DNA of 55,294 nt from NCBI GenBank assembly GCA_031424845.1, contig JANPIF010000117.1, forward strand, positions 1-55,294, written 5' to 3'. This DNA is from Ferruginibacter sp. Its GTDB lineage: Bacteria; Bacteroidota; Bacteroidia; Chitinophagales; Chitinophagaceae. Under the pieces are notes generated by a model, which did not search any database, had not been told where the DNA came from, and saw only the letters and a program-made list of their open reading frames with translations. Made by a program: the position numbers and the translations under genes. This document shows positions 24,895 to 48,868 of this stretch, one piece after another; within the stretch, counting starts at the first letter, position 1; the number at the start of each line of letters is the position of its first letter.

Positions 24895-24977
24895 AATTTT
24901 ACCAGTACTAATTTTTGATTATAATAAAATACTTACGCTTAATGTAGTATTTGTTTTCTATTAGTGGCATGTAAGAA

Positions 24978-26435
24978 TTAACTAATAAATAAATTAAACC
25001 GAATTCCAGAAAACTGGGTTATAGGAATAAGTTTAACAGAATTCCCGGTTGCAACTAATGACTGAATTACACTTGCATTAGGATGGTGGTCTCTATTCCC
25101 AATTCCATAGTTTATAAAATTATTCGCCCGGGTTTGTATTACTGAATGTAATATACTATCACTACTTTTTTGAGAGCCGTGGTGTGGAATCTGGAATAAC
25201 CAGTAATCATTCCAATAGTTAATAAAATGATTTACAAACTCGCTAACCTGGGCTTGCGTAAGCAAAAATGAATCAGACGTTAATAGTGCATTGGGATAAA
25301 TAAATCTATCAAAATCATTGCTATAATAATAATCAGGATATGGATATTCATTAAAATAATTCTGTGTTTCTATTCGTGAACCATCTGGAGAAATAAACTT
25401 TTGAATATGTGTAAGCTCACTTTCACCAATTCGATTTAAAAAATAGTTACGATGCCTTATCCTAGTTGGATTAACCAAAAAATTAAATATTCCACTAAGA
25501 TTTCTATGCATCATACACAAAGCTGTCGTATTCAAGTCATCTATCTTAACGCCTTTGATTGTTTCAAAATGCCCTTCATTCTTAGCATCTCTGAATATTT
25601 CCTTTATCTCAGTTGCAGCCGCTATTTCTTTAACTTTATTTACGATTTCGTCCAAAAGATCATCTTTTGACAGTCGATCATCAATTAAATACTTTTTAAA
25701 AAATAATTCTTTTACTTTTTCGTAAAACCCTGCTTCGTCTTCGCCAATAGTTCGTTTATAAAACAAAAACTCCATTAATATTATTGAACTACTTGTAAAT
25801 AACTTGCCCTTTTCAGAATCATTAATCTTGAATACTTTTGATTTTGGCTTTTTAGTTATTATTAAATCTGTATCTACACTTCCACTAATTTTATTTTCAA
25901 AATCAAACCTTAATCTGACTTCATTATTGTCAGATTCTGTATTCTCAGGAGGCACTTCATTTTCTGGTAAAATTGGGTCATTAGGTCCCCTTTCAATCAA
26001 AAAGACTTCTGAATCGCCATCAAGATTATCATTTAATGTACCCAGTGGATCTACTGTAAATCTTACAAAAAAATCATCATCGGGGTTAAAGCCGCCATTA
26101 TTGTCTAAGTGCCTGGCTATTAAGAATAACCTTTCATTGAATGAAATGAAAGGCATTACTAATTTTTTTACCTTAACTCCACCTTCAAGCAGTTCCCCGA
26201 TAAATTTCACATGGTCAGCATCAAAATGTGAAATCACTAACAGGTCAAGTACCTTTTTATCCAAATAATCTGTATCTCTATAAATCTCAACTTCCTCCTG
26301 TCCAGCGCCTGCAGTTAAACTTCCACAATCAAATACCATCCTGAATCTAACATCACTATCAAGTTTTATACAACATGAATAAAATAGCCCCTGTCCAACA
26401 GGATGTATTGTGAATTGCTGTTTGAAGGTTGCCAT
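24978..26435 (-). CDS. Metallo-beta-lactamase-fold hydrolase (ComEC/Rec2-like nuclease)
   Basis: HPVGQGLF, FDCGS, SHFDADH, QIPHHGS, HHP. Confidence 0.85.
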   Translation of the reverse strand: MATFKQQFTIHPVGQGLFYSCCIKLDSDVRFRMVFDCGSLTAGAGQEEVEIYRDTDYLDKKVLDLLVISHFDADHVKFIGELLEGGVKVKKLVMPFISFNERLFLIARHLDNNGGFNPDDDFFVRFTVDPLGTLNDNLDGDSEVFLIERGPNDPILPENEVPPENTESDNNEVRLRFDFENKISGSVDTDLIITKKPKSKVFKINDSEKGKLFTSSSIILMEFLFYKRTIGEDEAGFYEKVKELFFKKYLIDDRLSKDDLLDEIVNKVKEIAAATEIKEIFRDAKNEGHFETIKGVKIDDLNTTALCMMHRNLSGIFNFLVNPTRIRHRNYFLNRIGESELTHIQKFISPDGSRIETQNYFNEYPYPDYYYSNDFDRFIYPNALLTSDSFLLTQAQVSEFVNHFINYWNDYWLFQIPHHGSQKSSDSILHSVIQTRANNFINYGIGNRDHHPNASVIQSLVATGNSVKLIPITQFSGIRFNLFIS

Positions 26436-26444
26436 ATATAAGAG

Positions 26445-27338
26445 TTAATATTTAAGCTTATTACAAATTTCATCTACAATATCATTTCCTTGATATAATT
26501 TCTCCGAAGGAATCCGGCTAAATCCAAGGCCCCAAAAAGTGCTGACTATTGGGATCTCAAATTTTGCAATAGTCCGTCTGGCCAAATCAAATTGTTCTGT
26601 TCTTGAAGGAGCATCAAGTCGATAATTAGGAAATGGGCCGACCAAATATCCTTCCTGAAAAAAAGGTCGTTGTGCTTGTGGTGGACAAACACTTAGTAAA
26701 CGTATATTAACCAGTTCTTCGTAGGTATTATACCCAATTGCATCATTAGCCCAAGGCATACCAAGTACATACACTATCCCAGTTTTCCCTTCATTCCTAT
26801 CAAACGCAAATGAACAAGCCACATGTAAGGAGTGAGTTAAATCCAACAAAGGAGTAGGGCAAACTTCATAGTGTTGTAAAATTGACCAAGCGATTTCCGG
26901 GTATTTGCTCAATAATGATGTTCCGGCAAGTTTAATTTTGCTTTCGGAAAATTGCGTCTTTAATTCCTGCACCTTTCCATCTAAAATTTTAAACCTTTCT
27001 TTAAGAAAAAGCTTCGATTCGTCAACATTTCTTCGGTAAATATTTGGAAGTATCGTTGATCTACCTTCCTGATTCTTATGATCACTAGATTGCCCCCGAT
27101 AAAATAGTGTGAGGTTTCTGTTTCTATGCAATATTTGAGCAACATTTCTTACTAGCTCATCATAAGTATAAACTCTCATTGGATCAGACTGTAATATTTC
27201 ATCCAACGGAATGGGTTTATGCCATTCTTTATCCATTGGCGAACTCATTTTACCAAGATTAACATGACTAAAAGATGAACTAATTAATCGCATGTAAAAT
27301 AGTTTTATTGATTTAATTTCTCCCAAGCCTCCATGCAC
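26445..27338 (-). CDS. FRG domain protein (true start probably a later Met)
   Basis: FYRGQ, LQHYEVCPTPLLDLT..LHVACSFA, R...QEGY. Confidence 0.88.
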   Translation of the reverse strand: MHGGLGEIKSIKLFYMRLISSSFSHVNLGKMSSPMDKEWHKPIPLDEILQSDPMRVYTYDELVRNVAQILHRNRNLTLFYRGQSSDHKNQEGRSTILPNIYRRNVDESKLFLKERFKILDGKVQELKTQFSESKIKLAGTSLLSKYPEIAWSILQHYEVCPTPLLDLTHSLHVACSFAFDRNEGKTGIVYVLGMPWANDAIGYNTYEELVNIRLLSVCPPQAQRPFFQEGYLVGPFPNYRLDAPSRTEQFDLARRTIAKFEIPIVSTFWGLGFSRIPSEKLYQGNDIVDEICNKLKY

Positions 27339-27362
27339 AAAACTTTTTATGAGATAGTTTCA

Positions 27363-27965
27363 TTATTTTCTCGATACTTCATCTTTCTCATCAAATAAAA
27401 TATATTCTGTAATGGGGTTCGATAAAAGAAAATCTTCAAAAATCATTTCTTTATTATTTGGATCCCGTTTAAAATATCTTTCTCTTGTAGGATCATACCC
27501 TACAACAATTGAGTGAAGAGTATTATTACTAACTGGATATAAAACCATTGCCAAACCGCCCCTCTTTAGTTCTTCTCGCAACTGCAAAACTTCCCCTCGT
27601 TCAATAGGTGTTAATTGAGCTTTAGATTTTATAATGTCGCAATACCCACTTGTTTTAAAACTATTATCGATATGAAATTCAACAATATATTGAAAGCCCC
27701 TTTTATCAACTTTCTTTTTACAATGGTTATGAAAATGCTTAGTTATTTTATCTTCCCTATATTGATTAAATTCTACTCTACCTTTTTTTCTAAGATTCTC
27801 CTGCTCGGCAAAGTTGATGAGCTTATGCTTTGATAAGTATTCATTAAAGAATTTTAATAAACTATATTTCCCTTCTGAAAAATATTCTATTATAATGCCA
27901 TAAGAAGCAGTAGCACAAACATCTGCTGTTTGAGTATATTTAGTGTTTATGTATCTCATTTCCAT
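27363..27965 (-). CDS. Papain-fold peptidase C39-like protein
   Basis: Q-x4-C (TQTADVCATAS), HSIVVGYD, RDPN give a Cys-His-Asp triad in C39 order. Confidence 0.6.
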   Translation of the reverse strand: MEMRYINTKYTQTADVCATASYGIIIEYFSEGKYSLLKFFNEYLSKHKLINFAEQENLRKKGRVEFNQYREDKITKHFHNHCKKKVDKRGFQYIVEFHIDNSFKTSGYCDIIKSKAQLTPIERGEVLQLREELKRGGLAMVLYPVSNNTLHSIVVGYDPTRERYFKRDPNNKEMIFEDFLLSNPITEYILFDEKDEVSRK

Positions 27966-27967
27966 AA

Positions 27968-30900
27968 CTAATTATTTTCATTCAATTTCTCCCAAGCCTC
28001 CAACACCAACCTTCTCGTTCTATACTCTCCATACAACTTGATTTCCTTGTCTTTCAACACACGAAATGTCTCTCCAGGAAAATCAGGGCCATAAACATCC
28101 TGCGGGTCTAAAATGTACCGAAGTTCTTCGGTGGTGAGGCCATAGAGTTTAGCGTAAATAGCATCTAGTTCTGCTTTTAATACTGCCCTACGGTTTTCAT
28201 CCCATTTAAAGGGAGGTAATGGGCAACCTGTTTCATCTATTGCACACCATTCTGGCGGTGCCCATTCATGACCACCTGTGACTTCTTTATTTTCTTCCCA
28301 TTGTTTGGTGATGGCTGCTTTTAAATCATCATCAGCTTCTTTCCAAACATCATCGGCAAAATCTTTAATTTTCCAATAATTATAATCAAGCTCTAAGACA
28401 GACGGAATAATTTTTAGTAAGTTTTGTTTTTGGTAATCTGCTCTACTGTAAATTGGCAGTTGATTAATAATAAATTGAGCAATATTTTTTCCCCCTAATT
28501 TTTGACGAAGAACGTAATCAAAAATTAGAGCAGATGCATTTGCCTGAAACAAAACATGGTCAATTGCATTGGTAAATGCAAAAGTTTGTAAAGAATTTCC
28601 GACAAATGCTCGATTTACAATTGAAACTATAAATGTCCTTTCATTCATTACATCTGAAACTTTTCTTGTAACTAAAAAGTACTTACAGTTTGCAAATTTT
28701 TCGGGGAAATATTTATTTTCAATATAGAACCTGGGCATCCCTACAGAAAATGGATCTTTAAGCTCTTCTATTGATAAGGCATCATTTGTACCTCTTATAG
28801 CTTCTTCATCCTCACTAAACGATGCATTAGAATATCTTGAATTATATAAAAAAATCATCTTCCCTTCAACTAAAGGAATTGCATCCTTCCCGTCAATTTT
28901 GTTTGCCATTAGAAACTTATCAGAGTCAGAAGACATGTGAATCATTTCAGTAATTGTAAAATCCCATTCATTTTTAACTCCCTCTTTATAAAATATTGGT
29001 ACTCTCTTATAAATATCTTTTACAATTTTAGCATCGGTAGTGTTTTTGAAAATTGGGCAAGTCTTTGTATTTGGATTCAGTAGTAAGAAGTCTGCTTTAC
29101 TTAAATAAAAAACTCGAGTTTTATCTTTAATCTCCTCAACAAAGTTTAGATAAAATCCAAACATCGAATCACCAGTAAAATTATGACCAGCTGTAAATAA
29201 ACAATATTTTGTTTTGGTATGAAGAGTTGCAAAATACTTACCCTTACGATTTTCAAAATCGAACAGAGAAATAATTTTGTTATTCAATACTAAGTATTCA
29301 AAGAACTCTTTTAATGGGCTATCGGTAGCAATACCTGATGGTATCACAATGCCAATTCTTCCATTTGATTTGTTAATCAATTGAAGATTGAGTTCAGTGA
29401 ATAACGCATAGGTATTTAAGTCTCCTTTATTTGCAAGAGAATAATTTCGTGAAGAATTAATAAATAGAGATTGCTTTTCTGCTGAAATCTTATTCTTAAT
29501 GAAATCTTGAAATAACGCTGGGTTATTTTCTTGAAGTGAGCTTATTGAAGCTTTCCGAATATCTTTTGTTTTAGATGTACTTACGTTTCCGTCTTTGTTT
29601 TTAAAAAATTCTTTCTCTTGTAATTTAATACGTTCCCAAGGTGGATTACCCAGCATTACATCAAAACCGCCTTGCTCAAATACATCTGGAAACTCTAATG
29701 GCCAATGAAAGAATTTATGCTCTGTACTTAAAGCATCAGACTTTCCTATCATAGGGCCATAAGCTGCGGCTGGATTATTAAGAAACTTTGCCAGCCGTTC
29801 GCTATTGGGTGCTGCTTGTTTGTTTTCTTCGGTATAGTTCCAGAAGAAAGCAGCAGTCCAAAGGTTACAAGCCCGCCAATCTTTAAACCATGTGTGATTG
29901 TTGCGGAATTTTTCAAACTTCGTTTTTACCTGTTTTACGCCTTCTACATCATCCTGCTGTATCTTTTCGAGTTCTTTGTAATCGCCTGTAAATGCTGATG
30001 TATCGATGTTGCCGCTTTGTTCAAAATCAAGTGTAACTTGTTTGGTTTTGTTGTATTTGGCATTTTCCTTTTTTAGTTCCTGGCAAATCTTTTTGTCATC
30101 ACCAGTAACCGGATTAAATGCATCATCAGGAATACCTTTTTGCAATGCATTTAAATTGGTGATACCTACCAAGCTATTTCCGTTTCGTATTTTATGGTCT
30201 AAAAAACTAAGAGGTTTACCACTGTTATGTCCTTCCAGCCATAAGGCCAATTTGCATAACTCTACTGCATCGGGGTTATAATCTACCGCATAAATACAAT
30301 GCTGTATTACTTCCCGTAAACACTTTCGGTAAATAGACGGAGCAGGGTTTTCTTCTCCGCTTTGTACCCTTGCTAAATACCAGGCAATTGTACGTGCTGC
30401 TGCCAATAGCATGTGTCCGCTACCTGCCGCTGCATCACATACTTTCAATTTCAATAAGGCTTTAGCTTGTGCCGTTGTGTTGCCGGTATGTTCTTTTAAT
30501 CGTTCCTCAATAACAGGTATTAAAGCAGATTTGATGAGTTCGTTCACCAGTTCCGGTCTTGTGTAATAAGAGCCTGTTGTTTTGCGGTCGGTTCCTTCGT
30601 GAAAAGTAAAATTGATGTGTGCCGGATTGCTGGCTTCTATGTTTTCAATTACCGGATGCAATTCCAATAACCCTTCATAAACAGAACCTAATTCTTCTAC
30701 ATCTAATGACCTATAATTAATGGCAACTAAATTTTTCTTTTCATCTCTAAACTCATTAAGGTTTTTTACACACTCCAACAAAAGCCTGTTGTTTATCAAA
30801 CTTACTTCTAAATCAAGTATGGCTTGCGAACTGAATAAATCTCCATCCAAAGGCTGTATGCCTAATTTTTTTCCTCTGCCGCCAGCTTCAAATAAAATAA

Positions 30901-31978
30901 ATGTATTTACCAGCCCTTGCCACAAATCATTGAACTGTGCTTCATACACATAATGGCTTTCTGATAATTTACGCAAGCGGGCAATGCTGTAAAATTGTAA
31001 GTAGAATTTTTTAAGGCGTTGAGTGGCTTCACTTTTATCTTCCGGATCATACACCAAATCTCTTTCCTCAGTTACCATCAAAAACAAAAATCGATAAATG
31101 ATCCGTAACAACTGCCTGTAATAATCTTTGGATGATAACCTACCTGCTTGAATTTTTTCTCTTAGGGTTATATTGTTTTCGTGTTGCAAAAAGCCTTTAC
31201 CCAAAGCCACTAAAGATTCTTTTACCGCAAGGCTTAGTCCATCACGAATGCGATTACCGGTTTCAATACTGTCCTGATAATATTTCTCTAATATGCATTG
31301 ATCAGCTTCTGCTTTGTTTCTTGGAAAACGGGAAGCATGTAATAAGCGATACAATAAAGTAAACTCACTGTATTTGTCTTCATCCATCATCCGCTTAATA
31401 TCAAACTCCACATAAGTAAGTTTAATGAGGCGACCACTATCCCGAATTAAACGCAGGTACAAACCATTGGTAGCAATTCCATAAATATTCTCCGTAACGT
31501 TCAGGTATTCCTGCATTGTGCCGTGGGGTGAAAATTTAGAAGTGCCCCCACTAGTTTTAATGTCTAAGGTATTTTTATCGGGGTTACTTGGTTCTGAAAA
31601 GCCCACAATATGAATGGGCAGATGATCTAAGTTTTCTGCGGTATGGCTGATGGTGTAAGAATGGTTGTTATCCCCAAGTAAACCGGATTTTGAGCGGGAT
31701 AAATCAAAACTTATAGAACTAAAAAATTGCTCCATCCATTTACGGCTTAAAGTAGTACCATAAGGATCACTTGCAGGCAGGTTTTGACTTTTATCATTAA
31801 AGTTTTTCCAGTCTAATTTTATCCGGCTCCAGGCATATTCTATTTCGCTGCGAATATTAGAGCCGGGTTCAAAACCAAAGTCAGTAGCCAATTGCCCCTG
31901 AGCTTCTGCTTTTTCTATTTTTTGCAGAATTTCTTCTGAAATTAAATTGCCTAGTATATTTATGCAGGTGTACTTCAT
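27968..31978 (-). CDS. N6-adenine DNA methyltransferase, type IIG/Eco57I-like (DrmMI-like)
   Basis: GSYYT, DAAAGSGHML (motif I), GNPPW (motif IV), AT-rich C-terminal TRD region. Confidence 0.92.
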   Translation of the reverse strand: MKYTCINILGNLISEEILQKIEKAEAQGQLATDFGFEPGSNIRSEIEYAWSRIKLDWKNFNDKSQNLPASDPYGTTLSRKWMEQFFSSISFDLSRSKSGLLGDNNHSYTISHTAENLDHLPIHIVGFSEPSNPDKNTLDIKTSGGTSKFSPHGTMQEYLNVTENIYGIATNGLYLRLIRDSGRLIKLTYVEFDIKRMMDEDKYSEFTLLYRLLHASRFPRNKAEADQCILEKYYQDSIETGNRIRDGLSLAVKESLVALGKGFLQHENNITLREKIQAGRLSSKDYYRQLLRIIYRFLFLMVTEERDLVYDPEDKSEATQRLKKFYLQFYSIARLRKLSESHYVYEAQFNDLWQGLVNTFILFEAGGRGKKLGIQPLDGDLFSSQAILDLEVSLINNRLLLECVKNLNEFRDEKKNLVAINYRSLDVEELGSVYEGLLELHPVIENIEASNPAHINFTFHEGTDRKTTGSYYTRPELVNELIKSALIPVIEERLKEHTGNTTAQAKALLKLKVCDAAAGSGHMLLAAARTIAWYLARVQSGEENPAPSIYRKCLREVIQHCIYAVDYNPDAVELCKLALWLEGHNSGKPLSFLDHKIRNGNSLVGITNLNALQKGIPDDAFNPVTGDDKKICQELKKENAKYNKTKQVTLDFEQSGNIDTSAFTGDYKELEKIQQDDVEGVKQVKTKFEKFRNNHTWFKDWRACNLWTAAFFWNYTEENKQAAPNSERLAKFLNNPAAAYGPMIGKSDALSTEHKFFHWPLEFPDVFEQGGFDVMLGNPPWERIKLQEKEFFKNKDGNVSTSKTKDIRKASISSLQENNPALFQDFIKNKISAEKQSLFINSSRNYSLANKGDLNTYALFTELNLQLINKSNGRIGIVIPSGIATDSPLKEFFEYLVLNNKIISLFDFENRKGKYFATLHTKTKYCLFTAGHNFTGDSMFGFYLNFVEEIKDKTRVFYLSKADFLLLNPNTKTCPIFKNTTDAKIVKDIYKRVPIFYKEGVKNEWDFTITEMIHMSSDSDKFLMANKIDGKDAIPLVEGKMIFLYNSRYSNASFSEDEEAIRGTNDALSIEELKDPFSVGMPRFYIENKYFPEKFANCKYFLVTRKVSDVMNERTFIVSIVNRAFVGNSLQTFAFTNAIDHVLFQANASALIFDYVLRQKLGGKNIAQFIINQLPIYSRADYQKQNLLKIIPSVLELDYNYWKIKDFADDVWKEADDDLKAAITKQWEENKEVTGGHEWAPPEWCAIDETGCPLPPFKWDENRRAVLKAELDAIYAKLYGLTTEELRYILDPQDVYGPDFPGETFRVLKDKEIKLYGEYRTRRLVLEAWEKLNENN

Positions 31979-31984
31979 TTTCGT

Positions 31985-34816
31985 TTAGTTTACTTCAGGT
32001 AACAAAATATAAACACCCAATACATCCATCGGCAATATCGGTTCTACCACCCGGTATTTAGATCCGCCTACTAACCCTCTAAATTTAGTATGCATTTTTA
32101 CCAAATGATGGGCTCTATCTAATGCTACTTCATCGGTCTGTTTCCTGAAAGAAGTTTCATCTTTTACCCACTGCATTTCTTCATTTAGCCAATGAGCTTT
32201 TTCCGGCTCTTCCATATTTTGAGAAGCTTTTACACTCATTAAAAGGCTCAATGCTGCTTTACTTGTAAGAAGTTTTTTTTGATTTACTTCACCTTCATAA
32301 CCCCAAAGCCACATTTCTTCAGCAACTATTTGTTTATTGGAGGGTTGTTCTGCAATTACATTCCGCACCCTTAATTGAAACAATACTGTTTTTTGTTTTA
32401 TAGCTGCAGAACGCAATACTGCAGCCCTGGCTGCACTGTTATTGGCCCCTTGCAGTGCATTATTAATAATGTGTTGAGAAAGATGTTCGGCAAAGGGATG
32501 GTTTCTACCAATGTATTTATAACCGCCGGGAGTAGGTGATTTAAAAGAAACCTGTATATCATTTTTGTCTGTTAGCAAATCCCTTAGCCTTTGGGGTATA
32601 TTGGTTGCATAAATTTTATACCCATCTTTTTTTTCATCCACTTGCACGCCCATAAAACCGAGTGCTTCAACAATAAACTGCTCTACTGCTTTCACATCAC
32701 CAATGGCTTCATCCACCTCCTTTAAATCGCTTTCTATTTCGTTTGCTTTAATTGCGTTTTGAGCAAATATGCTTCGGGAAACTTTTTCTCTTTCCATTGC
32801 TTTATCAAACGCTTCCGAAACCCTTTTCTTTTCTGCTTCAATTTCTTCTGCTTCAAAAATTGATAATTGCTGAGAAACTTGTTTGACTGAAACAGACGGT
32901 TTCAACAAGATAGCGTTGGTAACAGCTTCCATTACAGAAGCACTATTTTCAGGGAAAGGAACGGAGATGCCAATTGATCTTCTGATTTCCCTGGCTTTAC
33001 GAAGCAACACTTCCAGTACCACGCCATCTATAGGGTTATTGCTACCATACAAGAGAGCAACTTCTACTGTCTCGGCTTGCTGCCCGAAGCGGTCAATACG
33101 ACCTTCCCGTTGTTCTAGGCGATTTGGGTTCCATGGTAAATCGTAATGCAACAAAGCATTAAAGCCTTCCTGTAAATTTATACCTTCACTCAAACAATCT
33201 GTTGCAATCAATAATCGCCTTTCAGATTTGTTCATCACATCAATTTTCTCTCTGCGTAGCTCATCGTTTAGTTCGCTGGTTATTACCTCTACATGTAAAT
33301 TTTTAAAATTTTTACCCTTTAAAGCATCTTTAAAAATAGAGCCTAAATAATTTGCAGTATGTATGTAGCGGCAAAAAATAATTGGGTTGTAGCCTCGTTC
33401 TATATAAGTCTTGATTTGCAGTAATGCTTCATTGGCTTTTTGGTCATGCTCAATTCCATATAACGTTTCCATTTTTTTTGCATACCCTAAAAGCCGTTTA
33501 GATTCTGAATCATTAACTGAAATATTAGTAGTTGGTAAATTATCATCTTTAGAATCATCAGGATCTAATGAACCTTGATTTCCATCATAATCTTCATCCT
33601 CATCGCCAATTTTTTTCTTTTTAGCTTTTTTAATCAACATAGAGATTCCTGCAGCCGGACTACTCATTACACCACGAAGCAATGCAAGAGCATCCCAATA
33701 ATTATAACGTTGCTTTCTGCCATCACCTACATTTTGAGCCACTATTTCTCGGGCATAAGATAAAATATCATTAAAAACCTCCCCATACACTTTGCCAATT
33801 TCAAAAGGCTTGTCAACTGAATTTCGTTCAGGGAATTTTGTTTCCTCATCAAGCCATTTTAATACATCGCCTCTTCTTCTTTGAATAAAATGTTTGGCAA
33901 TTTCTTTACGCTCCTGTTCGGTGGAAGTAATAATATCAATCTTTTCAAACTCCGGTTTTAATAAACCTAATATGGATTGAAACTCTGCCTGCTTGCCGCT
34001 GTGAGGTGTTGCGGTAAGCAGTAGCAAATGTTGTTTTTCTTTTTTTGCAATATCGTGTAGCAAGTGATAACGCAACTGCTGAGAGTTGTTTGCTCCGGCT
34101 GGTTTAGCACAGGTATGTGCTTCGTCAACAATAATTAATTCAGGGCAATGATCAATAAACACCTGGCGTTTGTTGCCTGATTTTATATAGTCTATTGAAA
34201 TAATTTGGAAAGGGAAAGCCCTGAAAATATTTTCATGTGTCCTGATTTGTCTTTCTAATGAAGAGGCAGTTCCACCTCTAATGATTACGGCTTCAACGCC
34301 AAATTTATTTTTTAATTCATCCTGCCATTGATCGCACAAATGAGGTAAGCAAACTATTGCAAAGCGTTTAATTTCTTTTCGTTCATACAGTTCTTTTGCT
34401 ATCAATAAAGCCTCGATAGTTTTACCCACACCAACATCATCAGCAATTAATAGTCGGGTAGTATCTTGTTTTAAGGCCATTATCAATGGAACCATTTGAT
34501 AAGAACGTGGCCGGAATGAAAGTTTACCTAAACAACGAAAAGGGCCAGCGGCATTGCGAAATGACAACCTTGCAGCATTGTATAATAGTTTGGCGGATGT
34601 AAAATCACCTAAATCATGTTCCGAGGGTTTAATGAAATTATAGGTCTGAGGATTGTCAGCTTCATTAGCCAATGGTTTGAAAATTCCTGTGATTTCATCA
34701 TCAGAACCCCCAAGCGGCTTTAACAATAAAAGGTCTATATCTTCTGAGGGCAGCACCACCCAAGGTCTGTTGCGAAGGGTAACTAAACTACCGGGTTTAA
34801 AATCAAAATTTGTCAT
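31985..34816 (-). CDS. SNF2-family helicase (DrmD-like)
   Basis: LLIADDVGVGKT, DEAH, TATPHSG, SEGINLQ, PWNPNRLEQREGRIDR. Confidence 0.92.
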   Translation of the reverse strand: MTNFDFKPGSLVTLRNRPWVVLPSEDIDLLLLKPLGGSDDEITGIFKPLANEADNPQTYNFIKPSEHDLGDFTSAKLLYNAARLSFRNAAGPFRCLGKLSFRPRSYQMVPLIMALKQDTTRLLIADDVGVGKTIEALLIAKELYERKEIKRFAIVCLPHLCDQWQDELKNKFGVEAVIIRGGTASSLERQIRTHENIFRAFPFQIISIDYIKSGNKRQVFIDHCPELIIVDEAHTCAKPAGANNSQQLRYHLLHDIAKKEKQHLLLLTATPHSGKQAEFQSILGLLKPEFEKIDIITSTEQERKEIAKHFIQRRRGDVLKWLDEETKFPERNSVDKPFEIGKVYGEVFNDILSYAREIVAQNVGDGRKQRYNYWDALALLRGVMSSPAAGISMLIKKAKKKKIGDEDEDYDGNQGSLDPDDSKDDNLPTTNISVNDSESKRLLGYAKKMETLYGIEHDQKANEALLQIKTYIERGYNPIIFCRYIHTANYLGSIFKDALKGKNFKNLHVEVITSELNDELRREKIDVMNKSERRLLIATDCLSEGINLQEGFNALLHYDLPWNPNRLEQREGRIDRFGQQAETVEVALLYGSNNPIDGVVLEVLLRKAREIRRSIGISVPFPENSASVMEAVTNAILLKPSVSVKQVSQQLSIFEAEEIEAEKKRVSEAFDKAMEREKVSRSIFAQNAIKANEIESDLKEVDEAIGDVKAVEQFIVEALGFMGVQVDEKKDGYKIYATNIPQRLRDLLTDKNDIQVSFKSPTPGGYKYIGRNHPFAEHLSQHIINNALQGANNSAARAAVLRSAAIKQKTVLFQLRVRNVIAEQPSNKQIVAEEMWLWGYEGEVNQKKLLTSKAALSLLMSVKASQNMEEPEKAHWLNEEMQWVKDETSFRKQTDEVALDRAHHLVKMHTKFRGLVGGSKYRVVEPILPMDVLGVYILLPEVN

Positions 34817-35214
34817 TAGTCTTTACAGGTTACATTCTCAGTTAAAAAATCGGCCAAATTGGTTTTGTTTTTCTGTCCATTGGCAACTTCAATAAGCACC
34901 GGCCATAAATATTCATCCGGTATCGTTAAATCACAGCCATTCAATCTTAAAAAAGCAAACAATGCTAAAAAGCCTGTCCGTTTATTGCCATCCGAAAACC
35001 CCTGAGATTCAGAAATGTGATAGTAATAAGCAGCTGCCATTTGATATTTGTTTTCATGCAGGTATTGACCACCAAAACTTGCTTGTGGTTGATTTATAGC
35101 CGATTCAATAAGCCCCTTATCTCTTACTCCATCTGAACCACCAAATGTGTTTATTGCAAGTTTGTTTAGTTGAACAATTCTTTCAAAATCAAGAAAAGTA
35201 TAATCTTTCATCAT
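34816..35214 (-). CDS. Fic/Doc (death-on-curing) family toxin
   Basis: GVRDKGLIESA...FGG, QGFSDGNKRT Fic motif (His replaced by Gln), FLRLNG. Confidence 0.88.
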   Translation of the reverse strand: MMKDYTFLDFERIVQLNKLAINTFGGSDGVRDKGLIESAINQPQASFGGQYLHENKYQMAAAYYYHISESQGFSDGNKRTGFLALFAFLRLNGCDLTIPDEYLWPVLIEVANGQKNKTNLADFLTENVTCKD

Positions 35215-38200
35215 TCTCCTAATTTTTTAAGAGTGAGACTAAATCTTGTTTTTGCTTCTTCAAACAGGCTATTAATTTCCTGCTCAGATACTTTAGATTT
35301 TGAAGATTTTACAGATTTGAAAATGTCGGGTCTTCTTGCAAGGAAATTTTCTAATGACTCTTTATAATACCAAGTCAGAATTTGATAACCGTTATTCTTT
35401 AATGCTGTTCGTTTTTCAATATCATCCTTTTTTACGTCAACTGAGTCATGAGGTGTACCATCACAGAAAATATAAACATTGGGTTTGTAATAAAAATCCG
35501 GCCGAACAAACATAGCATCCACTTTTGGTTGTGCTTCATCCGGTAGCTTTAAACCCTTTCCGTAAAGCATTTTTAAAAATTTATCTTCAGTACTGCTGTT
35601 GGGATCCCTTGAGGCTTGCAGAAATTGGTATTGTTCATCATAACTGCTGAATGACTTATTGGCTAACACTTCAACAGTTGATTCTTTTAAATTGCGCAAT
35701 GCTTCCCTTATGAGATTGCGGTCAATTTGCTGATGATAAAACTGATTGTAATAACTCAGCAAATCATCGTAAGTGGCTGGAAGCACTTCACCTTCTTCTT
35801 CTACTTCATTCTTATAAAAGCATATTTTATACGCTTCAATCATGATTGCTTTATAAAGCGAAGGATTATCCATTATTTGAGATAGTACACCTAAACTTCC
35901 TTCGGCAGCTTCATAAATTAAAATGTTTGGAGCATCCTCTTCTCCCATTATGGTTGCACCAATTTCATTTGATTCCACCTGAAAATAATTTTCAATAGCA
36001 CGCTTAATGGCAAACATTAAAGTAATAACTCCGTTGCTTCCACCACCCAGGCCAAGGGATTTAATTGGCTGTATGTATAGGGCGTTAGCTGTATCGGATG
36101 TAAATAGTTTTACATCCTTGATTTCATCTGCTTCACCTTTTTCTTCTTTTTGTTTTTTGCTTTGCCAGTATCCTGTGTTCAAGTTTATGGTGAAACCATA
36201 TTCTCTCGAAGCACGCCATTTTAAATTGAGTTTAAAAATTCTGCAAGTGGGCAAGTAGTGAATATGTAGGAGCTTCTCATCTGCCACACTTACAATTCCT
36301 TCTGTAGTGTTCTCAAAACCGCCATCTACTGCAAAGTAGGTTTGTATGTCATACCCTTTCTTAGTTCTTTCTTCTTCTTGGCAGGTGATTCTTTGCAATT
36401 CGTACGCCCTAGTTTCTGCCATCTCAATCAATGTGGTATGCACATGTTTGTTGGTATCCAACTGCAAGGTTTCGTTGATGATAGGGTCAACCTCGTATCC
36501 GTATTGTTTGTCGTAAAGGAAGTATCCAGTTTTTGGACAGATTTTACCATTCTCCAATTTGAGTTCTGCCTCTGTCAAAATCATTCTGTCAACCCTGTAT
36601 TTGGCACCGTCGTGATAGATGACATTGCGTGGGCCAAATTCATTCAAAGCAATGAAACGAGCCCTTGAAATAAACTCACCGCCACCATCTTCGCTTTCCA
36701 TGAATGAACGGACTGGAAGGCGTGTAAAGTTATAACCAGGTAAAAATCCTTCTGCAGCCAAATAGCGATAAGGATAGAATTCAGATTGATCTTTGTTGCT
36801 TTTTTTACCATCAGTTGCCTCGTTCAAAAGCAAGTCTCTTTGTCTTTCACCTTGCCTTAAATTTTTGTAAGCCTCTTTCTTCTTTTCATGGTTATCAGCA
36901 TAAATTCTATTTTCAATTATTGAAGTAGCTCCTTTAATTTGATGTTGAGCCGCTTTGTAAAGTTTCCTCCAGCGGTCAAGCGAACTGTCAAAAGTTTGCT
37001 GAAAAGAATCAATATTTTGTTTTATCCAGCCATCGGTAAACCACGATGGTTTTCTTCGTGCCAATTCATTTTTAAAATAAGTATCATCAATAACTTTCTT
37101 GTAATTGGCGTGAATAAGAACCTTTTCTTGCTCACTTATTTTTAAAGTATCTATAATTTCTTGCTTCAGAGGAAGGCTTTCAAAATTGTTTTTATCTACC
37201 AAATCGCCAAGCGAAGCATTGAGCACACTCAACGGTCTTCTTGTTAAAATGGAAGCATTCAAATGACTTAGTAATAATTCCTCATTTATTAAGTCCATTC
37301 TGGGCGCAGTTACTGTACCTGCAACCATTTGAGTAGAATGTTTAAAATAGTGACGGTCATGAGCACTGAAATTTGAACAATAAACCAAAACCAAAGCAGC
37401 TTGGCCGCTTCTTCCTGCACGTCCGCTTCGTTGTGCATAATTGGATGGTGATGGTGGCACATTTCGCATGTGGACTATGGAAAGGTCTGAGATGTCAATA
37501 CCCAACTCCATAGTTGGCGAACAAAATAATGCACCAATTTTACCCTCTCTAAATTCCTTTTCCCTTTGCTTTCTCTTTTCGTTATTGATTTGCCCTGTGT
37601 GTTCACGACCTTCAATTGGCTTTATGTCTTGAAAGTTGGTTTGATAGAACCGTTGAAAGTATTTATTTGGTTTTGTGTTTAAGGGTTTGTAAGAACGGTT
37701 TTTAATTAAGTCAGGGATTAGATTTTCCCCATCACCTTTATGCCAAAGAATGTTGTCTACCTTTAATTGATAGATACTTATTTCCTGGTTGTCTAATGTT
37801 TTTGCAGGTTTTTTAACCAACCACCCAGCTGCACTTAAAAAGTTAAGGAAATTGTAGGTAAAATCATTATAGACTTGTTTACCCCTGATGTCAATTCCAT
37901 AATGTGCTGCTTTTTTTCTTAAGTAGCGTCCAAAAACACTGGTAAGCCCTGCACTTTCAGAATATAATTCCTTTGCTGATGAGGATAGTCTTTCTAACCG
38001 AATATGGTTTGGAATTTCAAGCTTTTCATTTTCATCTAATGTCCAAGGTGCTTTTAGTTTTTCTTTAATCTTTTTGGCATTAGTAGAAATAACTCCGGGT
38101 TCAAGCATAGAAAAACTTAATGCATATGATTTACGGAAGAAATCAAAAACCTGATGCAAAAACTCTTGCCTTTCATTTGGAGTCATCGCAAAAAGTAAAT

Positions 38201-40451
38201 CATTAGGTTGCCAAAGGGAATTGTCCTGTATTGATTCTTTCAGATGCTTGTATTCAATTGTCAACAAAGCACATTGTTCAAGATTCGGTAAAACTACACG
38301 CCAACTTCTTCTCAAATCATGAAGCAGGCGGTACATGATAAAGTCTTTAAAAGCTTCTTCATTTTCTTTCTTTGGACCTGGAAAGGATGCAGGCTGTTTT
38401 GCGAATTGGTCTTGACCAATATTCAGGCATTCAAATACTTTATCTGTAATATTTGTGTAATCAAGTGTATTGTGATTTTCGAGGGCTTTGGCTATGGCGG
38501 CTCTTAACTGTCCTACTTTAACAAAGTCGTTAAAGTGTCCTGCTTGTAAAGATGCATCTTGTCGATTGTCAGTAAAACTCAACAGTTTTTGTTTCTCTGA
38601 AGATTCTCCAAATGCTTGAAGTTGTGTAATGGTTTCGAATGACAATACTGTGGTTGCGGTGCTTCGGCCTTCACCGCCAAGTTTCATTACCTTAGTCCAC
38701 TCAGCTGTTTGGGCGTCATAAATTGTTCCAGAAGTTGGATCAAACATCAGTGGAGACGGCATGAACCAACCTTCGAAATCAAGTGATTGTGAAAATGAAA
38801 AATCGCCCTTTTTGTTAAACCATATCTTGCGTGGTAATCTGCCTTCTCTTTCTTTTTTTAATTTTCTAGTCCCATCTTTTCTAGGCAGGGTAAACCAAGT
38901 TTCGGGCAAGTCAGATATATCTCTTTCTGCATCCCAAATTGGTTCTTCATCTTCCTTATGTTGAATAAAAATGTAACCTTCTTCAATGGCGGATTCATCT
39001 TCCTCATCAACTAAGTCATAAAACTCTCTCGGCTGTATTATGGAGTCATTTAGATTTAACTTAACGCAAGTAAATTCATGTCCTGAGGTTCTGCTAAATA
39101 CCATTGGGAATAACATGGTTTCTTTATTATCAGCATATAGGCCAGCATCCAAGAATAATTCTCTTGTTAATTGATTTCCTAAAGTTGTATAAACCGATCC
39201 AGTTTGAGCAATAAACTGATGAATTCGGTAAGGGAGAAAATTCTTCTGTTTGCCCGGGTCGGTATTTAAAATATTTGCCCATTCAAGCAACTGCTCTAAG
39301 TGGTATAAAGCGTCTTGTTTTTTAGTCTCAGTATATTCAGAGAGTTGCTTTGCAATTTCTGAAAGTTCAATTGGTTTTCGTCTAACTAAAACTCCTTCCT
39401 TTGGTTCTAATGCTATTTGTTCCTCAATCCAATTTGCAGTTGGGTGTTTTTCAAAATCATTTGCTTTTAAAGTTGATGAAATTCCAAGTGAAATGGCGTT
39501 TATCAAATCATCCTTTGTTGGAGAGTGCCCAAGTCCAATACTTCTTACCAAATATTCATTTACAACCTGATCTGACTGAATGTCTGTTCCAAATATGGTA
39601 GATGCAACTTCTGCAACTTTCTTCTTTTGTTCTAACAAAGAAGTTGAGTCACCGGAAACCATCGTGGCTGATGTACCTATACAAGCAATAGGTTTTGATG
39701 CAGCAGATTTTATTCTGCGAATGAGAATTGATACGTCTGAACCTTGTCTTCCTCTATAAGTATGAAGTTCATCAAATACCAGGTATTTAATGTTTTCTAA
39801 AAAATTCTGTCTGATTTCAACATCCCTTCCGCTTCTTGTCATGACCAATTCCAGCATCATATAATTCGTTAGTAGGATGTGTGGTGGATTTAATCTAAGC
39901 TTTTCCTTTTGTTCGTCAGATTCTTGACCGGTATATTGTTCAAAAGTAATTGGGAATGGTTTATTATATTTTTCTTCGTACGTTTTTTTGAATTTTTCTA
40001 TTTCCTTGTATTGTGAATTAATAAGAGCATTCATGGGATAAACCACAACAGCATTTATTTTATCTGTTGCAAAATCTCCCAGATTTAAAACATGATTAAA
40101 AATTGTAGCCATGTAGGTCAGTGATTTTCCAGAACCTGTTCCAGAAGTAACAATAAATTCCCGGCCTTTTGCCCCTAATAAAATTGCCTCTTCTTGGTGT
40201 TTGTAAAGACTAAAGCCTTGGAAAATATTATCAAGTTCACTGTGAAGGTGACCTTCATTTACTAATGTTGAAAGTGGTCGACCTTTTTCAAATGTCGGAT
40301 TAAACTGAACTAAAGGCTCTGGCCAAAGTTTTTTATTGCCAATTTCCGAATCAACAAAATTCAGAATCCTGGGCTCTTTAATGTTTAGAAAGCTCTGGAT
40401 ATATGTTTTGTAATTTTCAATTAGTTTTTTATGGAAATTAAGAATGTCCAT
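35211..40451 (-). CDS. YprA-like DEAD/DEAH helicase with DUF1998 and C-terminal Vsr/DUF559-like nuclease (DrmA+DrmB-like fusion), plus extra C-terminal helix
   Basis: SGTGSGKS, YPMNAL, DELH, SAT, TMELGIDI, QRSGRAGR; EAAEGSLG...LLSYYNQ; RPDFYY..IFCDG.PH. Confidence 0.9.
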   Translation of the reverse strand: MDILNFHKKLIENYKTYIQSFLNIKEPRILNFVDSEIGNKKLWPEPLVQFNPTFEKGRPLSTLVNEGHLHSELDNIFQGFSLYKHQEEAILLGAKGREFIVTSGTGSGKSLTYMATIFNHVLNLGDFATDKINAVVVYPMNALINSQYKEIEKFKKTYEEKYNKPFPITFEQYTGQESDEQKEKLRLNPPHILLTNYMMLELVMTRSGRDVEIRQNFLENIKYLVFDELHTYRGRQGSDVSILIRRIKSAASKPIACIGTSATMVSGDSTSLLEQKKKVAEVASTIFGTDIQSDQVVNEYLVRSIGLGHSPTKDDLINAISLGISSTLKANDFEKHPTANWIEEQIALEPKEGVLVRRKPIELSEIAKQLSEYTETKKQDALYHLEQLLEWANILNTDPGKQKNFLPYRIHQFIAQTGSVYTTLGNQLTRELFLDAGLYADNKETMLFPMVFSRTSGHEFTCVKLNLNDSIIQPREFYDLVDEEDESAIEEGYIFIQHKEDEEPIWDAERDISDLPETWFTLPRKDGTRKLKKEREGRLPRKIWFNKKGDFSFSQSLDFEGWFMPSPLMFDPTSGTIYDAQTAEWTKVMKLGGEGRSTATTVLSFETITQLQAFGESSEKQKLLSFTDNRQDASLQAGHFNDFVKVGQLRAAIAKALENHNTLDYTNITDKVFECLNIGQDQFAKQPASFPGPKKENEEAFKDFIMYRLLHDLRRSWRVVLPNLEQCALLTIEYKHLKESIQDNSLWQPNDLLFAMTPNERQEFLHQVFDFFRKSYALSFSMLEPGVISTNAKKIKEKLKAPWTLDENEKLEIPNHIRLERLSSSAKELYSESAGLTSVFGRYLRKKAAHYGIDIRGKQVYNDFTYNFLNFLSAAGWLVKKPAKTLDNQEISIYQLKVDNILWHKGDGENLIPDLIKNRSYKPLNTKPNKYFQRFYQTNFQDIKPIEGREHTGQINNEKRKQREKEFREGKIGALFCSPTMELGIDISDLSIVHMRNVPPSPSNYAQRSGRAGRSGQAALVLVYCSNFSAHDRHYFKHSTQMVAGTVTAPRMDLINEELLLSHLNASILTRRPLSVLNASLGDLVDKNNFESLPLKQEIIDTLKISEQEKVLIHANYKKVIDDTYFKNELARRKPSWFTDGWIKQNIDSFQQTFDSSLDRWRKLYKAAQHQIKGATSIIENRIYADNHEKKKEAYKNLRQGERQRDLLLNEATDGKKSNKDQSEFYPYRYLAAEGFLPGYNFTRLPVRSFMESEDGGGEFISRARFIALNEFGPRNVIYHDGAKYRVDRMILTEAELKLENGKICPKTGYFLYDKQYGYEVDPIINETLQLDTNKHVHTTLIEMAETRAYELQRITCQEEERTKKGYDIQTYFAVDGGFENTTEGIVSVADEKLLHIHYLPTCRIFKLNLKWRASREYGFTINLNTGYWQSKKQKEEKGEADEIKDVKLFTSDTANALYIQPIKSLGLGGGSNGVITLMFAIKRAIENYFQVESNEIGATIMGEEDAPNILIYEAAEGSLGVLSQIMDNPSLYKAIMIEAYKICFYKNEVEEEGEVLPATYDDLLSYYNQFYHQQIDRNLIREALRNLKESTVEVLANKSFSSYDEQYQFLQASRDPNSSTEDKFLKMLYGKGLKLPDEAQPKVDAMFVRPDFYYKPNVYIFCDGTPHDSVDVKKDDIEKRTALKNNGYQILTWYYKESLENFLARRPDIFKSVKSSKSKVSEQEINSLFEEAKTRFSLTLKKLGE

Positions 40452-40559: not shown

Positions 40560-41465
40560 TTATACATACTTTTTCAATGCATCACGCAATTCCTTTTCCA
40601 TTTGCTTCCGCAATTTCATTGGGCTTAGTACTTCCAGCTCTTGGCCAAAAGATAGCAGTGCTTTGGTAAAATCGAACGTAATATATAGGAACAATTCGAT
40701 GATAACAGCATTTTTGTCCTCTTCAATAATTATTTGCGAGGCGTGCAAAGGATATGTCTTTACATACTGCCCCTGCTCATAACTAAATTGCAATCTTACC
40801 CGCTGCGCTTTCCCTGCTTCATCACCAAGAATCCCGAAAGCCTGTGCAAAAAGGGCCTTAAAATCATAGGTATATTTTTCACGGTATTTTGTTTTGCTGA
40901 TGTCAATATCAGTCATCCTGTCCAGCCCAAAAGTTTTTAAACGATTGTCTTTTGTATCCACAGCCAAAAGATACCAACGCCCCTGTGCCTCTTTTAGTGC
41001 AAGGGGATGGGTGGTTCTATCCGTTATGGTTTCATCCCAATACTTATAATGTCTAAAATGTACAATACGCTTATTTTTTATGGCATACAGCAGTCCGAAA
41101 AAATGTTCCAGCCCTTTTGGCTTTCGGGTTTCCAAAAATACCGTCTCCGTAAAATCTTGCGAAGCATGTATGGCATTAATCATTTGGTACGATTCCAATA
41201 TCCGCTGGCTATGCTGTTCGGTCTCGGGTTTAGAATGAATATGGTATCGCCTGTCCCCCTTTTTCTCGTTCACAATTTCAATATCCAGTTGCGTATAAAT
41301 ATCTTTTATATCCCTTTGCAGCGTACGCTGCGTTATATTAAAATTCTTATCTCTAATAGCAGACTCGTCTTCCAAATACCTGGCAATCTGCTCATAGGTG
41401 GAAGGGCCTCTTTCCAGGCGCTTTATAATCAAAGCGTATCTTGATAAAAACAGTTCTTTAGGCAT
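40560..41465 (-). CDS. WYL-domain transcriptional regulator (wHTH-WYL-WCX)
   Basis: RTLQRDIKDI HTH, GRWYLLA, TFGLDRM, PLHASQ, LEVLSP..LR. Confidence 0.92.
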   Translation of the reverse strand: MPKELFLSRYALIIKRLERGPSTYEQIARYLEDESAIRDKNFNITQRTLQRDIKDIYTQLDIEIVNEKKGDRRYHIHSKPETEQHSQRILESYQMINAIHASQDFTETVFLETRKPKGLEHFFGLLYAIKNKRIVHFRHYKYWDETITDRTTHPLALKEAQGRWYLLAVDTKDNRLKTFGLDRMTDIDISKTKYREKYTYDFKALFAQAFGILGDEAGKAQRVRLQFSYEQGQYVKTYPLHASQIIIEEDKNAVIIELFLYITFDFTKALLSFGQELEVLSPMKLRKQMEKELRDALKKYV

Positions 41466-48586: not shown

Positions 48587-48868
48587 ATGAAAGCAAAAAT
48601 AATTGCCTTGAATAAGAACCATGAGGACAGTGGTAAAATGGATCTTGAAACCTGTAAACGACTTATAAATATTAACGGCAATAAATATACAGACGAAGAA
48701 ATACTAAAGATCAGAGATTTCCTATATCAATTGGCAGAGATTGAATGCAGGTATTTTAAACAATGGCAGACTGAACAACATGAAAATGTAAAACCAATAA
48801 ATGCAATTAACGATGAAAGAAAAGAAAGCGTTCCTCTATATCCGAGTGAGTACAGACGAACAGGCTGA
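48587..48868 (+). CDS. Small hypothetical protein overlapping the recombinase start
   Basis: KYTDEEILKIRDFLYQLAEI helix; position immediately upstream of integrase. Confidence 0.65.
   Translation: MKAKIIALNKNHEDSGKMDLETCKRLININGNKYTDEEILKIRDFLYQLAEIECRYFKQWQTEQHENVKPINAINDERKESVPLYPSEYRRTG

What the first reader, a model, noticed from the sequence alone, without database searches (positions are those of the whole stretch)
34816..35330. Candidate guard system: Phd-like antitoxin helix fused to a DISARM-related helicase, directly ahead of a Doc toxin
Seen: a doc-like gene sits inside the helicase-SNF2-MTase operon, coupled on both sides (ATGA at 35211-35214 with AGGAGA just upstream; TAATG at 34816), and there is no separate antitoxin gene. 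The helicase continues past its nuclease-like domain (...RRPDIF) through a KS-repeat linker (AAATCT x3 at a 9-nt period) into VSEQEINSLFEEAKTRFSLTLKKLGE. This tail has no ATG of its own. Known: Doc toxins are neutralised by the C-terminal amphipathic helix of Phd/AbrB-type antitoxins, which often end in a pattern like RY..L..LA. Inference: the antitoxin is grafted onto the defence helicase, so phage-driven degradation, inhibition or remodelling of the helicase would free Doc and cause abortive infection, or make the system addictive.
Basis: partly seen in the sequence, partly recalled or inferred. Interest (0 to 1): 0.88.

Follow-up and report, generated by a model that had tools for sequence, protein, structure and literature searches.

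The report
Antitoxin helix grafted onto defence helicase
In a subset of ARMADA anti-phage operons the big helicase-nuclease gene ends in an extra antitoxin-like helix and is directly followed by a Doc-family toxin gene that this helix is predicted to bind, so the defence enzyme would itself act as the antitoxin and likely serves as a fail-safe, although the toxin lacks its usual catalytic histidine and its toxicity is untested.

Summary
Observation confirmed and recurrent. The operon is an ARMADA type I system (YprA helicase-nuclease, SNF2, methylase), not DISARM proper. Among 33 loci, all 14 helicases with a 33-36 aa tail are followed by doc; none of 19 short-ended ones is. A profile of tails alone matches the C-termini of small genes that precede Doc elsewhere (8 of 60 at E below 0.01). 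The helix is as conserved as Doc and the helicase core, the linker is not. Doc plus tail scores 0.90 against a best control of 0.02, though Phd-Doc is solved. The cassette is patchy on the helicase tree. Best reading: a tethered-antitoxin fail-safe on ARMADA; rivals are a non-toxic accessory subunit or a purely addictive passenger. Not found in my paper searches; this scan noted ARMADA I in four other genomes, without a Doc cassette. New variant of a known kind.

The parts
40560..41465 (-). WYL-WCX transcriptional regulator gene just upstream of the operon (link to the operon inferred from position)
   Evidence: Pfam WYL E 5e-14, WCX E 4.5e-10
35211..40451 (-). YprA/DruE-like helicase-nuclease (ArmC-like), 1746 aa, ending in the grafted tail
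   Evidence: DEAD, Helicase_C, weak MZB below cut-off; best PADLOC match DruE3 E 1.2e-76
35319..35640 (-). C-terminal Vsr-like nuclease domain ending in RPDIF; the natural end of the protein in cassette-less relatives
   Evidence: TIGR00632 Vsr E 0.0096, below cut-off; top Foldseek row is Vsr 1cw0 but E 0.33; PDF/FCDGxPH conserved; Bell et al. describe a Vsr domain there
35277..35318 (-). variable Lys/Ser-rich linker, aa 1712-1725
   Evidence: pN/pS 0.56, mean identity 43% over 12 loci; AAATCT x3 not conserved
35214..35276 (-). antitoxin-like helix, aa 1726-1746 (predicted Doc-contacting stretch aa 1720-1745)
   Evidence: tail profile hits stand-alone pre-doc genes; pN/pS 0.20; predicted interface; helix in model
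34816..35214 (-). Doc-family gene, 132 aa, overlapping the helicase stop and the SNF2 start
   Evidence: TIGR01550 51.4 bits over cut-off 38.65; model pLDDT 95 matches P1 Doc 3dd7, TM 0.83
35002..35004 (-). Gln71 codon, at the position of the catalytic His of the Fic motif
   Evidence: alignment to P1 Doc; Gln in 92 of 92 clade members and 17 of 18 sister-clade members
31985..34816 (-). SNF2/RapA-like helicase (ArmA-like; BrxHII/DrmD/DpdE-related), 943 aa
   Evidence: DpdE 5.8e-182; DISARM_DrmD 303 bits, below cut-off 610
27968..31978 (-). PglX/DrmMI-like adenine methyltransferase (ArmB-like), 1336 aa
   Evidence: Eco57I E 3.6e-24; DrmMI E 6.3e-75

Best explanation
An ARMADA type I operon carries an optional cassette in which an antitoxin-like helix is fused through a short linker to the end of the helicase-nuclease, and the overlapping Doc gene's product is predicted to bind that helix, so the defence enzyme would be the antitoxin and would likely act as a fail-safe that frees Doc to arrest growth when the helicase is destroyed, depleted or remodelled during phage infection. 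Shown by sequence and calls: the fusion, its strict pairing with doc, the stop-start overlaps, homology of the helix to Doc-partner C-termini, and purifying selection. Predicted: binding (about 0.9 likely). Inferred: translational coupling makes Doc only after its binding site has been made, at no more than about one Doc per helicase. With no DNA-binding domain left, the pair cannot autoregulate and depends wholly on helicase abundance and the state of its C-terminus. Free Doc is toxic despite His-to-Gln (about 0.6), by EF-Tu phosphorylation as in P1 Doc or a variant activity. Phage anti-defence proteins, proteolysis or host shut-off supply the trigger. Addiction to the operon would be a by-product.
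For: Tail and doc agree in 33 of 33 loci (14 with both, 19 with neither). Seven more distant helicase ends from an unbiased draw of 400 genomes (one repeats L002) have neither. 15 of 28 tailed versus 0 of 92 untailed database helicases share a contig length with a Doc of this group (indirect). The tail-only profile hits 8 of 60 stand-alone pre-doc genes at E 5.6e-8 to 7e-3; the best other hit among 18,728 ORFs of the own genome is E 4.1. pN/pS is 0.20 for the helix, 0.17 for Doc, 0.20 for the helicase core and 0.56 for the linker. Complex score 0.90, best of 3 controls 0.02; the mark was reached by 116 of 157 solved complexes and 2 of 215 mismatched pairs; runs agree in at least 89% of contacts, partner pLDDT at least 75; contacts include Fic-loop residues 76, 78, 79. 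An isolated Phd-C helix fused to SUMO neutralises a Doc (PMC10440598), so a graft can work. Gln-type Docs also sit behind AbrB-type genes in 26 of 34 more distant loci and form a separate branch of the Doc tree, so Gln arose more than once in Docs that kept a partner. No doc without tail was seen. Guardians embedded in restriction loci are known (PrrC; PMC12707154).
Against: The catalytic His is replaced by Gln, and mutation of that His makes P1 Doc non-toxic (PMC2686095; general base per PMC5033356). 7 of 92 clade Docs also change Asn77 to Ser, and one (L023/P0064) lacks 7 residues before the motif while keeping the tail, which hints at relaxed catalysis. Tail and doc are adjacent, so one indel moves both and co-occurrence alone shows no interaction; only 2 independent contrasts lie on well-supported branches (9 on all), sign test p 0.5. 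The reciprocal profile search is not significant (E 0.68-0.77). The complex resembles solved Phd-Doc and may pass from memory. About three quarters of close helicases lack the cassette (92 of 120), and operon junctions take in many unrelated passengers. The tested ARMADA (type II) is non-abortive. Nothing here shows a trigger.
Confidence: 0.4

Rival explanations
1. The Gln-type Doc is a non-toxic pseudo-enzyme that the helix recruits as an accessory subunit beside the Vsr-like nuclease, where it would bind a nucleotide or a phage or host protein (sensor, decoy or regulator) rather than kill.
For: His-to-Gln is fixed in 92 of 92, and 7 of 92 carry further loop changes. His loss abolishes P1 Doc toxicity. 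Doc and helix are still under purifying selection, which needs some function.
Against: In the model the helix covers Fic-loop residues 76-79, as an inhibitor would. Gln-type Docs elsewhere keep full AbrB-type partners in 26 of 34 loci. Asp75, Lys78 and Arg79 stay at 91-92 of 92. No doc-only state was seen.
Confidence: 0.27
2. The cassette is a minimal selfish addiction module: a toxin-antitoxin pair that lost its promoter and DNA-binding domain by fusing in frame to the helicase. It moves between operons by recombination in the conserved flanks and only penalises loss or silencing of the operon, with no phage-triggered role.
For: Patchy on the helicase tree (27 of 117 rows, at least 20 changes). 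One clear exchange: L012/L063 doc pS 0.35 against flanks 0.64 and 0.68, with differing tree places. Two tail types are interleaved on the tree. Other passengers (YhcG, SoFic, REase-ARP, AlbA_2) occupy junctions of the same operons.
Against: The cassette is lost often and as a unit (remnant in L019; P0158), so any addiction is weak. A 1746-aa enzyme is an unlikely labile antitoxin (inference). Patchiness is equally expected of an accessory defence layer.
Confidence: 0.25
3. The fusion is a neutral scar of an old toxin-antitoxin insertion; tail and Doc no longer do anything.
For: Catalytic His lost; cassette dispensable in most relatives.
Against: Helix and Doc are as constrained as the helicase core while synonymous sites approach saturation, and the adjacent linker drifts. 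More than 90 distinct intact Doc sequences exist.
Confidence: 0.05

Closest known systems
ARMADA type I (Bell et al. 2025, bioRxiv 10.1101/2025.09.15.676423; read parts 1-3 of 7 of the text, plus term searches of text and 4 supplements)
   Same: YprA-like helicase first, then BrxHII-like SNF2 and PglX-like methylase; helicase closest to DruE; Vsr-type domain at its end.
   Different: An extra tail on the helicase and a doc gene between the first two genes; Doc and Fic do not occur in the paper's text, nor Doc, Fic, death-on-curing or Phd in 4 supplements.
P1 Phd-Doc and AbrB-Doc (TIGR02609/TIGR01550) toxin-antitoxin pairs
   Same: Doc fold (TM 0.83 to 3dd7), antitoxin element encoded directly upstream with overlapping stop and start, C-terminal helix predicted to complete and cover the Doc.
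   Different: No free antitoxin and no DNA-binding domain; the helix hangs on a 1746-aa defence enzyme; catalytic His replaced by Gln.
PanA-PhdC/Doc of Corynebacterium doosanense and the engineered SUMO-PhdC fusion (PMC10440598; passages read)
   Same: A Phd C-terminal helix works as a portable neutralising module on an unrelated carrier domain, proposed there to be sensory.
   Different: There the carrier is a dedicated antitoxin domain; here it is the core helicase-nuclease of a separate multi-gene defence system.
PrrC-EcoPrrI guardian (PMC12707154; passages read)
   Same: An optional toxin gene embedded in a restriction-like operon, activated when phage disables the first line.
   Different: PrrC is an anticodon nuclease that senses inhibition of EcoPrrI by T4 Stp; no antitoxin domain is described there as fused to a restriction subunit. 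Here the trigger is unknown and untested.
CreTA-type safeguards of CRISPR-Cas (name and mechanism recalled; only a related abstract seen in the listing)
   Same: A toxin whose control depends on a core defence protein, making the system addictive.
   Different: RNA-based, controlled through transcriptional repression by Cas; here a protein-protein tether.

Membership tests
ARMADA type I | Single-gene YprA-like SF2 helicase with DUF1998/MZB region, closest to Druantia DruE | tested here: met
   DEAD and Helicase_C, MZB weak (22.6 bits, cut-off 24.2); top seven PADLOC rows are DruE
ARMADA type I | Order YprA helicase, BrxHII-like SNF2, PglX-like methylase; no GajB/UvrD gene following | tested here: met
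   definition; the gene after the methylase is a 200-aa protein with no family hit
ARMADA type I | Vsr-type nuclease at the helicase C-terminus | tested here: inconclusive
   TIGR00632 E 0.0096 below cut-off; Foldseek top row Vsr, E 0.33
ARMADA type I | Placement in the ARMADA I clade of the YprA tree | not tested
   no reference set was fetched
DISARM class I | Split DrmA/DrmB and a PLD nuclease DrmC in the operon | tested here: not met
   helicase is one 1746-aa gene; the only PLD gene found (18024-20006) belongs to PDC-M27; DrmD and DrmA models below cut-off
Phd/AbrB-Doc type II TA | Doc family sequence and fold | tested here: met
   TIGR01550 over cut-off; TM 0.83 to P1 Doc
Phd/AbrB-Doc type II TA | Catalytic His in the HxFx(D/E)(G/A)NKR motif | tested here: not met
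   Gln71; 92 of 92 in the clade
Phd/AbrB-Doc type II TA | Separate small upstream antitoxin with DNA-binding domain | tested here: not met
   no separate ORF or conserved internal start
Phd/AbrB-Doc type II TA | C-terminal antitoxin helix binds Doc | tested here: inconclusive
   model supports binding, 0.90 against control 0.02, does not show it; homology one-way significant
Phd/AbrB-Doc type II TA | Free Doc is toxic (EF-Tu kinase) and is rescued by the antitoxin | not testable with these tools
   needs expression assays
Guardian systems of the PrrC kind | Optional effector gene embedded in a restriction-like defence operon | tested here: met
Guardian systems of the PrrC kind | Effector activated when phage disables the host defence complex | not testable with these tools
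   needs phage challenge

The most novel reading that the evidence does not exclude
A hard-wired guard: the antitoxin of a protein toxin-antitoxin pair is genetically grafted onto the core enzyme of a DNA-targeting immune system, so any phage factor that destroys or remodels the ARMADA helicase-nuclease releases a Doc variant that is active with Gln in place of the catalytic His. The cassette spreads between ARMADA operons as a plug-in second line.
Probability: 0.35. Interest if true: 0.85.

Novelty: new variant of a known kind. Interest (0 to 1): 0.72.

Why it matters
Guardian layers for restriction-like systems are known from few cases, and each needs an evolved sensing interface. A 21-residue helix fused to the guarded enzyme would be the simplest way to build one, and natural pairs with and without the cassette (helicases up to 93% identical) give a ready comparison. 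It would add an abortive layer to a system reported as non-abortive, offer a selection for phage anti-ARMADA proteins, and pose a sharp enzymology question: how widespread His-to-Gln Doc proteins work, if they are active. If the Doc is inert, it is still an unusual case of a toxin-antitoxin interface reused to attach a subunit to a defence enzyme.

Tried and rejected
Assembly frameshift or one-off fusion: rejected. Hidden separate antitoxin ORF or internal start: rejected. KS repeat and AGGAGA as functional signals: not conserved or wrongly spaced. DISARM membership: rejected. Profiles of stand-alone partner genes run against the own genome ranked the helicase first or third for the 60-aa family but not significantly, and did not rank it for the AbrB family. 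The single-sequence tail search of 1.84 billion representatives returned only two proteins, both helicase fragments; the 'longer' search returned only helicases and fragments. So no other carrier protein for this tail was found, at low sensitivity. redrew the same matches as and added nothing. Viral contigs held no relative of the sister-clade Doc, and plasmid hits were all under 60% identity, so the context of the sister clade rests on one contig-length pairing (P0142 with P0090). The fold search of the helicase C-terminus gave no match at E 0.001. The promoter scan was at chance level (16 found, 20.2 expected). No RNA holder was listed. The independent-pairs test had too few supported contrasts. 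Two primary Doc papers were not held. Paper searches that found no description of this fusion: plus term searches. The library lacks most subscription papers, and bioRxiv supplements are closed.
Full report
Observation. The region is on the minus strand. A 1746-aa helicase (35211-40451) reads through RRPDIF into a 35-residue tail; its stop overlaps the start of a 132-aa gene (34816-35214), whose stop overlaps the start of a 943-aa SNF2 gene; a 1336-aa methylase follows. The small gene is Doc family (TIGR01550, 51.4 bits, cut-off 38.65; model pLDDT 95, TM 0.83 to P1 Doc) and is the only match to that family in the 84%-complete own genome. There is no in-frame start in the last 50 helicase codons here, none conserved in 14 loci, and the other frames are closed. 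Contigs of two independent runs cross the junction without gaps. The AAATCT repeat is private to this copy. AGGAGA encodes the end of the tail and lies 0-3 nt from the ATGs.

Host system. The helicase is closest to Druantia DruE, the SNF2 to DpdE/DrmD/BrxHII and the methylase to DrmMI. This content and order are those of ARMADA type I as defined by Bell et al. (10.1101/2025.09.15.676423; I read parts 1-3 of 7), who also place a Vsr-type nuclease at the helicase end; my support for Vsr is weak. Doc and Fic do not occur in that text, and Doc, Fic, death-on-curing and Phd were not found in 4 supplementary files of the PMC copy. Four earlier notes of this scan call similar operons ARMADA I and mention no Doc. 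The operon lies in a low-GC defence island with a WYL regulator upstream and GmrSD-like, FRG and PDC-M27 genes downstream.

Does the tail go with doc? Of 29 loci examined (own included; L003, a weak unrelated match, left out), one lacked the helicase end. Of the other 28, 9 had a 35-36 aa tail and doc overlapping the stop, and 19 ended 4-9 residues after RPDIF with no doc (18 ran straight into SNF2, one had another gene inserted). Record titles are mostly Bacteroidota. From the Doc side, the 7 closest of 41 metagenome loci (60-84% identity; two repeat genome loci) all had a tailed helicase upstream. Merged: 33 loci, 14 with both, 19 with neither, none mixed. An unbiased draw of 400 genomes of the order gave 8 more matches; the 7 with a readable end (one repeats L002) had neither. 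Among 120 database helicases, 28 carry a 32-36 aa tail, in two sequence types. 15 of the 28, and 0 of the other 92, share a longest-contig length with a Doc (65 of 120 Doc lengths entered, those left out all under 5 kb; indirect evidence). Caveat: tail and doc are neighbours, so one indel moves both, and only 2 independent contrasts sit on well-supported branches.

Is the tail an antitoxin helix? More distant Docs have a small separate gene upstream. These are either AbrB/MazE-type (one over the TIGR02609 doc_partner cut-off, three below it, of four tested) or a roughly 60-aa type from the window's own family with no Pfam or NCBIfam match over cut-off (7 tested). A profile built only from the last 26 residues of the 28 tails hits 8 of these 60 stand-alone genes at E 5.6e-8 to 7e-3, all of the 60-aa type and at their C-termini; AbrB types score only E 10 or worse; the best non-self hit among 18,728 own-genome ORFs is E 4.1. 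The reverse search ranks the helicase first or third but is not significant. That these small genes are antitoxins is inferred from position. Over 12 loci pN/pS is 0.20 for the helix, 0.17 for Doc, 0.20 for the helicase core, 0.10 for SNF2 and 0.56 for the linker, with synonymous sites near saturation. Doc with aa 1710-1746 scored 0.90 against a best control of 0.02; the mark was reached by 116 of 157 solved complexes and 2 of 215 mismatched pairs; runs agreed in at least 89% of contacts, partner pLDDT at least 75. Contacts run over tail residues 1720-1745 and include Doc 76, 78 and 79 of the Fic loop. Phd-Doc is solved, so this shows likeness, not binding. A Phd-C helix fused to SUMO neutralises its Doc in vivo (PMC10440598, passages), so a grafted helix can work.

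History. On a tree of 117 helicase cores (3 partial proteins dropped) the 27 tailed rows need at least 20 changes, and the window's nearest row (93% identical) has no tail. L019 keeps the linker and start of a type-2 tail but has lost helix and doc together; P0158 is a similar stub. L012 and L063 share a doc far closer than either flank (pS 0.35 against 0.64 and 0.68), while other groups are congruent across the three genes: mostly vertical descent with frequent loss and some exchange. On a Doc tree of 52 rows the clade and its sister group form one branch (99/95) next to His-type Docs with AbrB partners (95/95), whereas the Docs of the 60-aa family branch elsewhere; the donor of the helix is therefore not settled. 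Junctions of related operons also hold YhcG, SoFic, REase-ARP, AlbA_2 and other passengers, so insertion is common here. The in-frame capture is what is special.

The problem with the toxin. The Fic motif has Gln where P1 Doc has His66, in 92 of 92 clade members and 17 of 18 of the sister group. That His is thought to be the general base (PMC5033356, passages) and its mutation makes Doc non-toxic (PMC2686095, passages). Seven of 92 also have Asn77Ser, and one copy lacks 7 residues before the motif. On the other side, Asp75, Lys78 and Arg79 are kept in 91-92 of 92, Gln is fixed rather than drifting, and 26 of 34 distant metagenome loci, collected by a Gln-containing pattern, have an AbrB-type gene upstream (2 at contig edges, 6 none found). 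Those Docs form a separate branch, so Gln arose more than once in Docs that kept a partner. I found no paper on Gln-type Docs.

Mechanism. Shown: fusion, pairing, overlaps, selection. Predicted: binding. Inferred: coupling delivers Doc onto a freshly made tail, and with no repressor domain the only control is the amount and state of the helicase C-terminus. Loss, cleavage or remodelling of the helicase would free Doc. I put a phage-triggered fail-safe at 0.40, a non-toxic accessory subunit at 0.27, a purely addictive passenger at 0.25 and a neutral scar at 0.05. The nearest working analogy is PrrC inside EcoPrrI (PMC12707154, passages); CreTA is recalled, not read. It works like a guardian or addiction module, but it fails two defining features of Phd-Doc (free antitoxin, catalytic His), so I do not file it as a plain member.

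Novelty. Parts and concept are each known; an antitoxin helix fused to the core enzyme of a separate defence system was not found, in a library that lacks most subscription papers and bioRxiv supplements. Verdict: real, recurrent, under selection, cheaply testable; new variant of a known kind; interest 0.72.

Noticed in passing
L137:1322-1504, L138:1322-1504, L143, L148, L151 and about a dozen similar loci: A family of roughly 60-aa genes directly upstream of His-type doc genes in the window's own family, with a helical N-terminus and no Pfam or NCBIfam match over cut-off (7 tested): likely an unnamed Doc antitoxin type.
   Followed up: partly
L071-L098: Stand-alone AbrB-type plus Doc pairs in which Doc also has Gln in place of the catalytic His, on a separate branch of the Doc tree: a wider His-to-Gln Doc class of unknown activity.
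   Followed up: partly
L068, L069, L070, L099-L101: Gln-type Doc genes with no upstream partner gene detected; could be orphan or non-toxic copies.
   Followed up: no
L023:6299-6676: Doc with an in-frame 7-residue deletion just before the Fic motif while the helicase tail is intact (same protein P0064 seen on 8 contigs).
   Followed up: no
L004-L029, SNF2/methylase and helicase/SNF2 junctions: Related ARMADA I operons carry varied inserted genes: YhcG (L004, L023), SoFic-like (L005, L006), REase-ARP (L007, L010, L028), AlbA_2 proteins (L011, L029), 23S-IVP four-helix protein (L017).
   Followed up: partly
window 14410-21349 (-): Complete PDC-M27A/B/C candidate defence trio, directly behind a GmrSD-like gene at 21346-23565.
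   Followed up: partly
window 23596-27965 (-): Genes behind the methylase: 200-aa and 432-aa proteins with no family hit, an FRG/PDC-S15-like gene and an MBL-fold-like 485-aa gene.
   Followed up: no
window 48801-50390 (+): Large serine recombinase at the edge of the low-GC region (about 8-54 kb), a possible integrase of the island.
   Followed up: no
window 37866-37894 (-): A perfect TTGACA-17-TATAAT match inside the helicase gene, pointing towards doc; overall promoter-like counts were at chance level.
   Followed up: no
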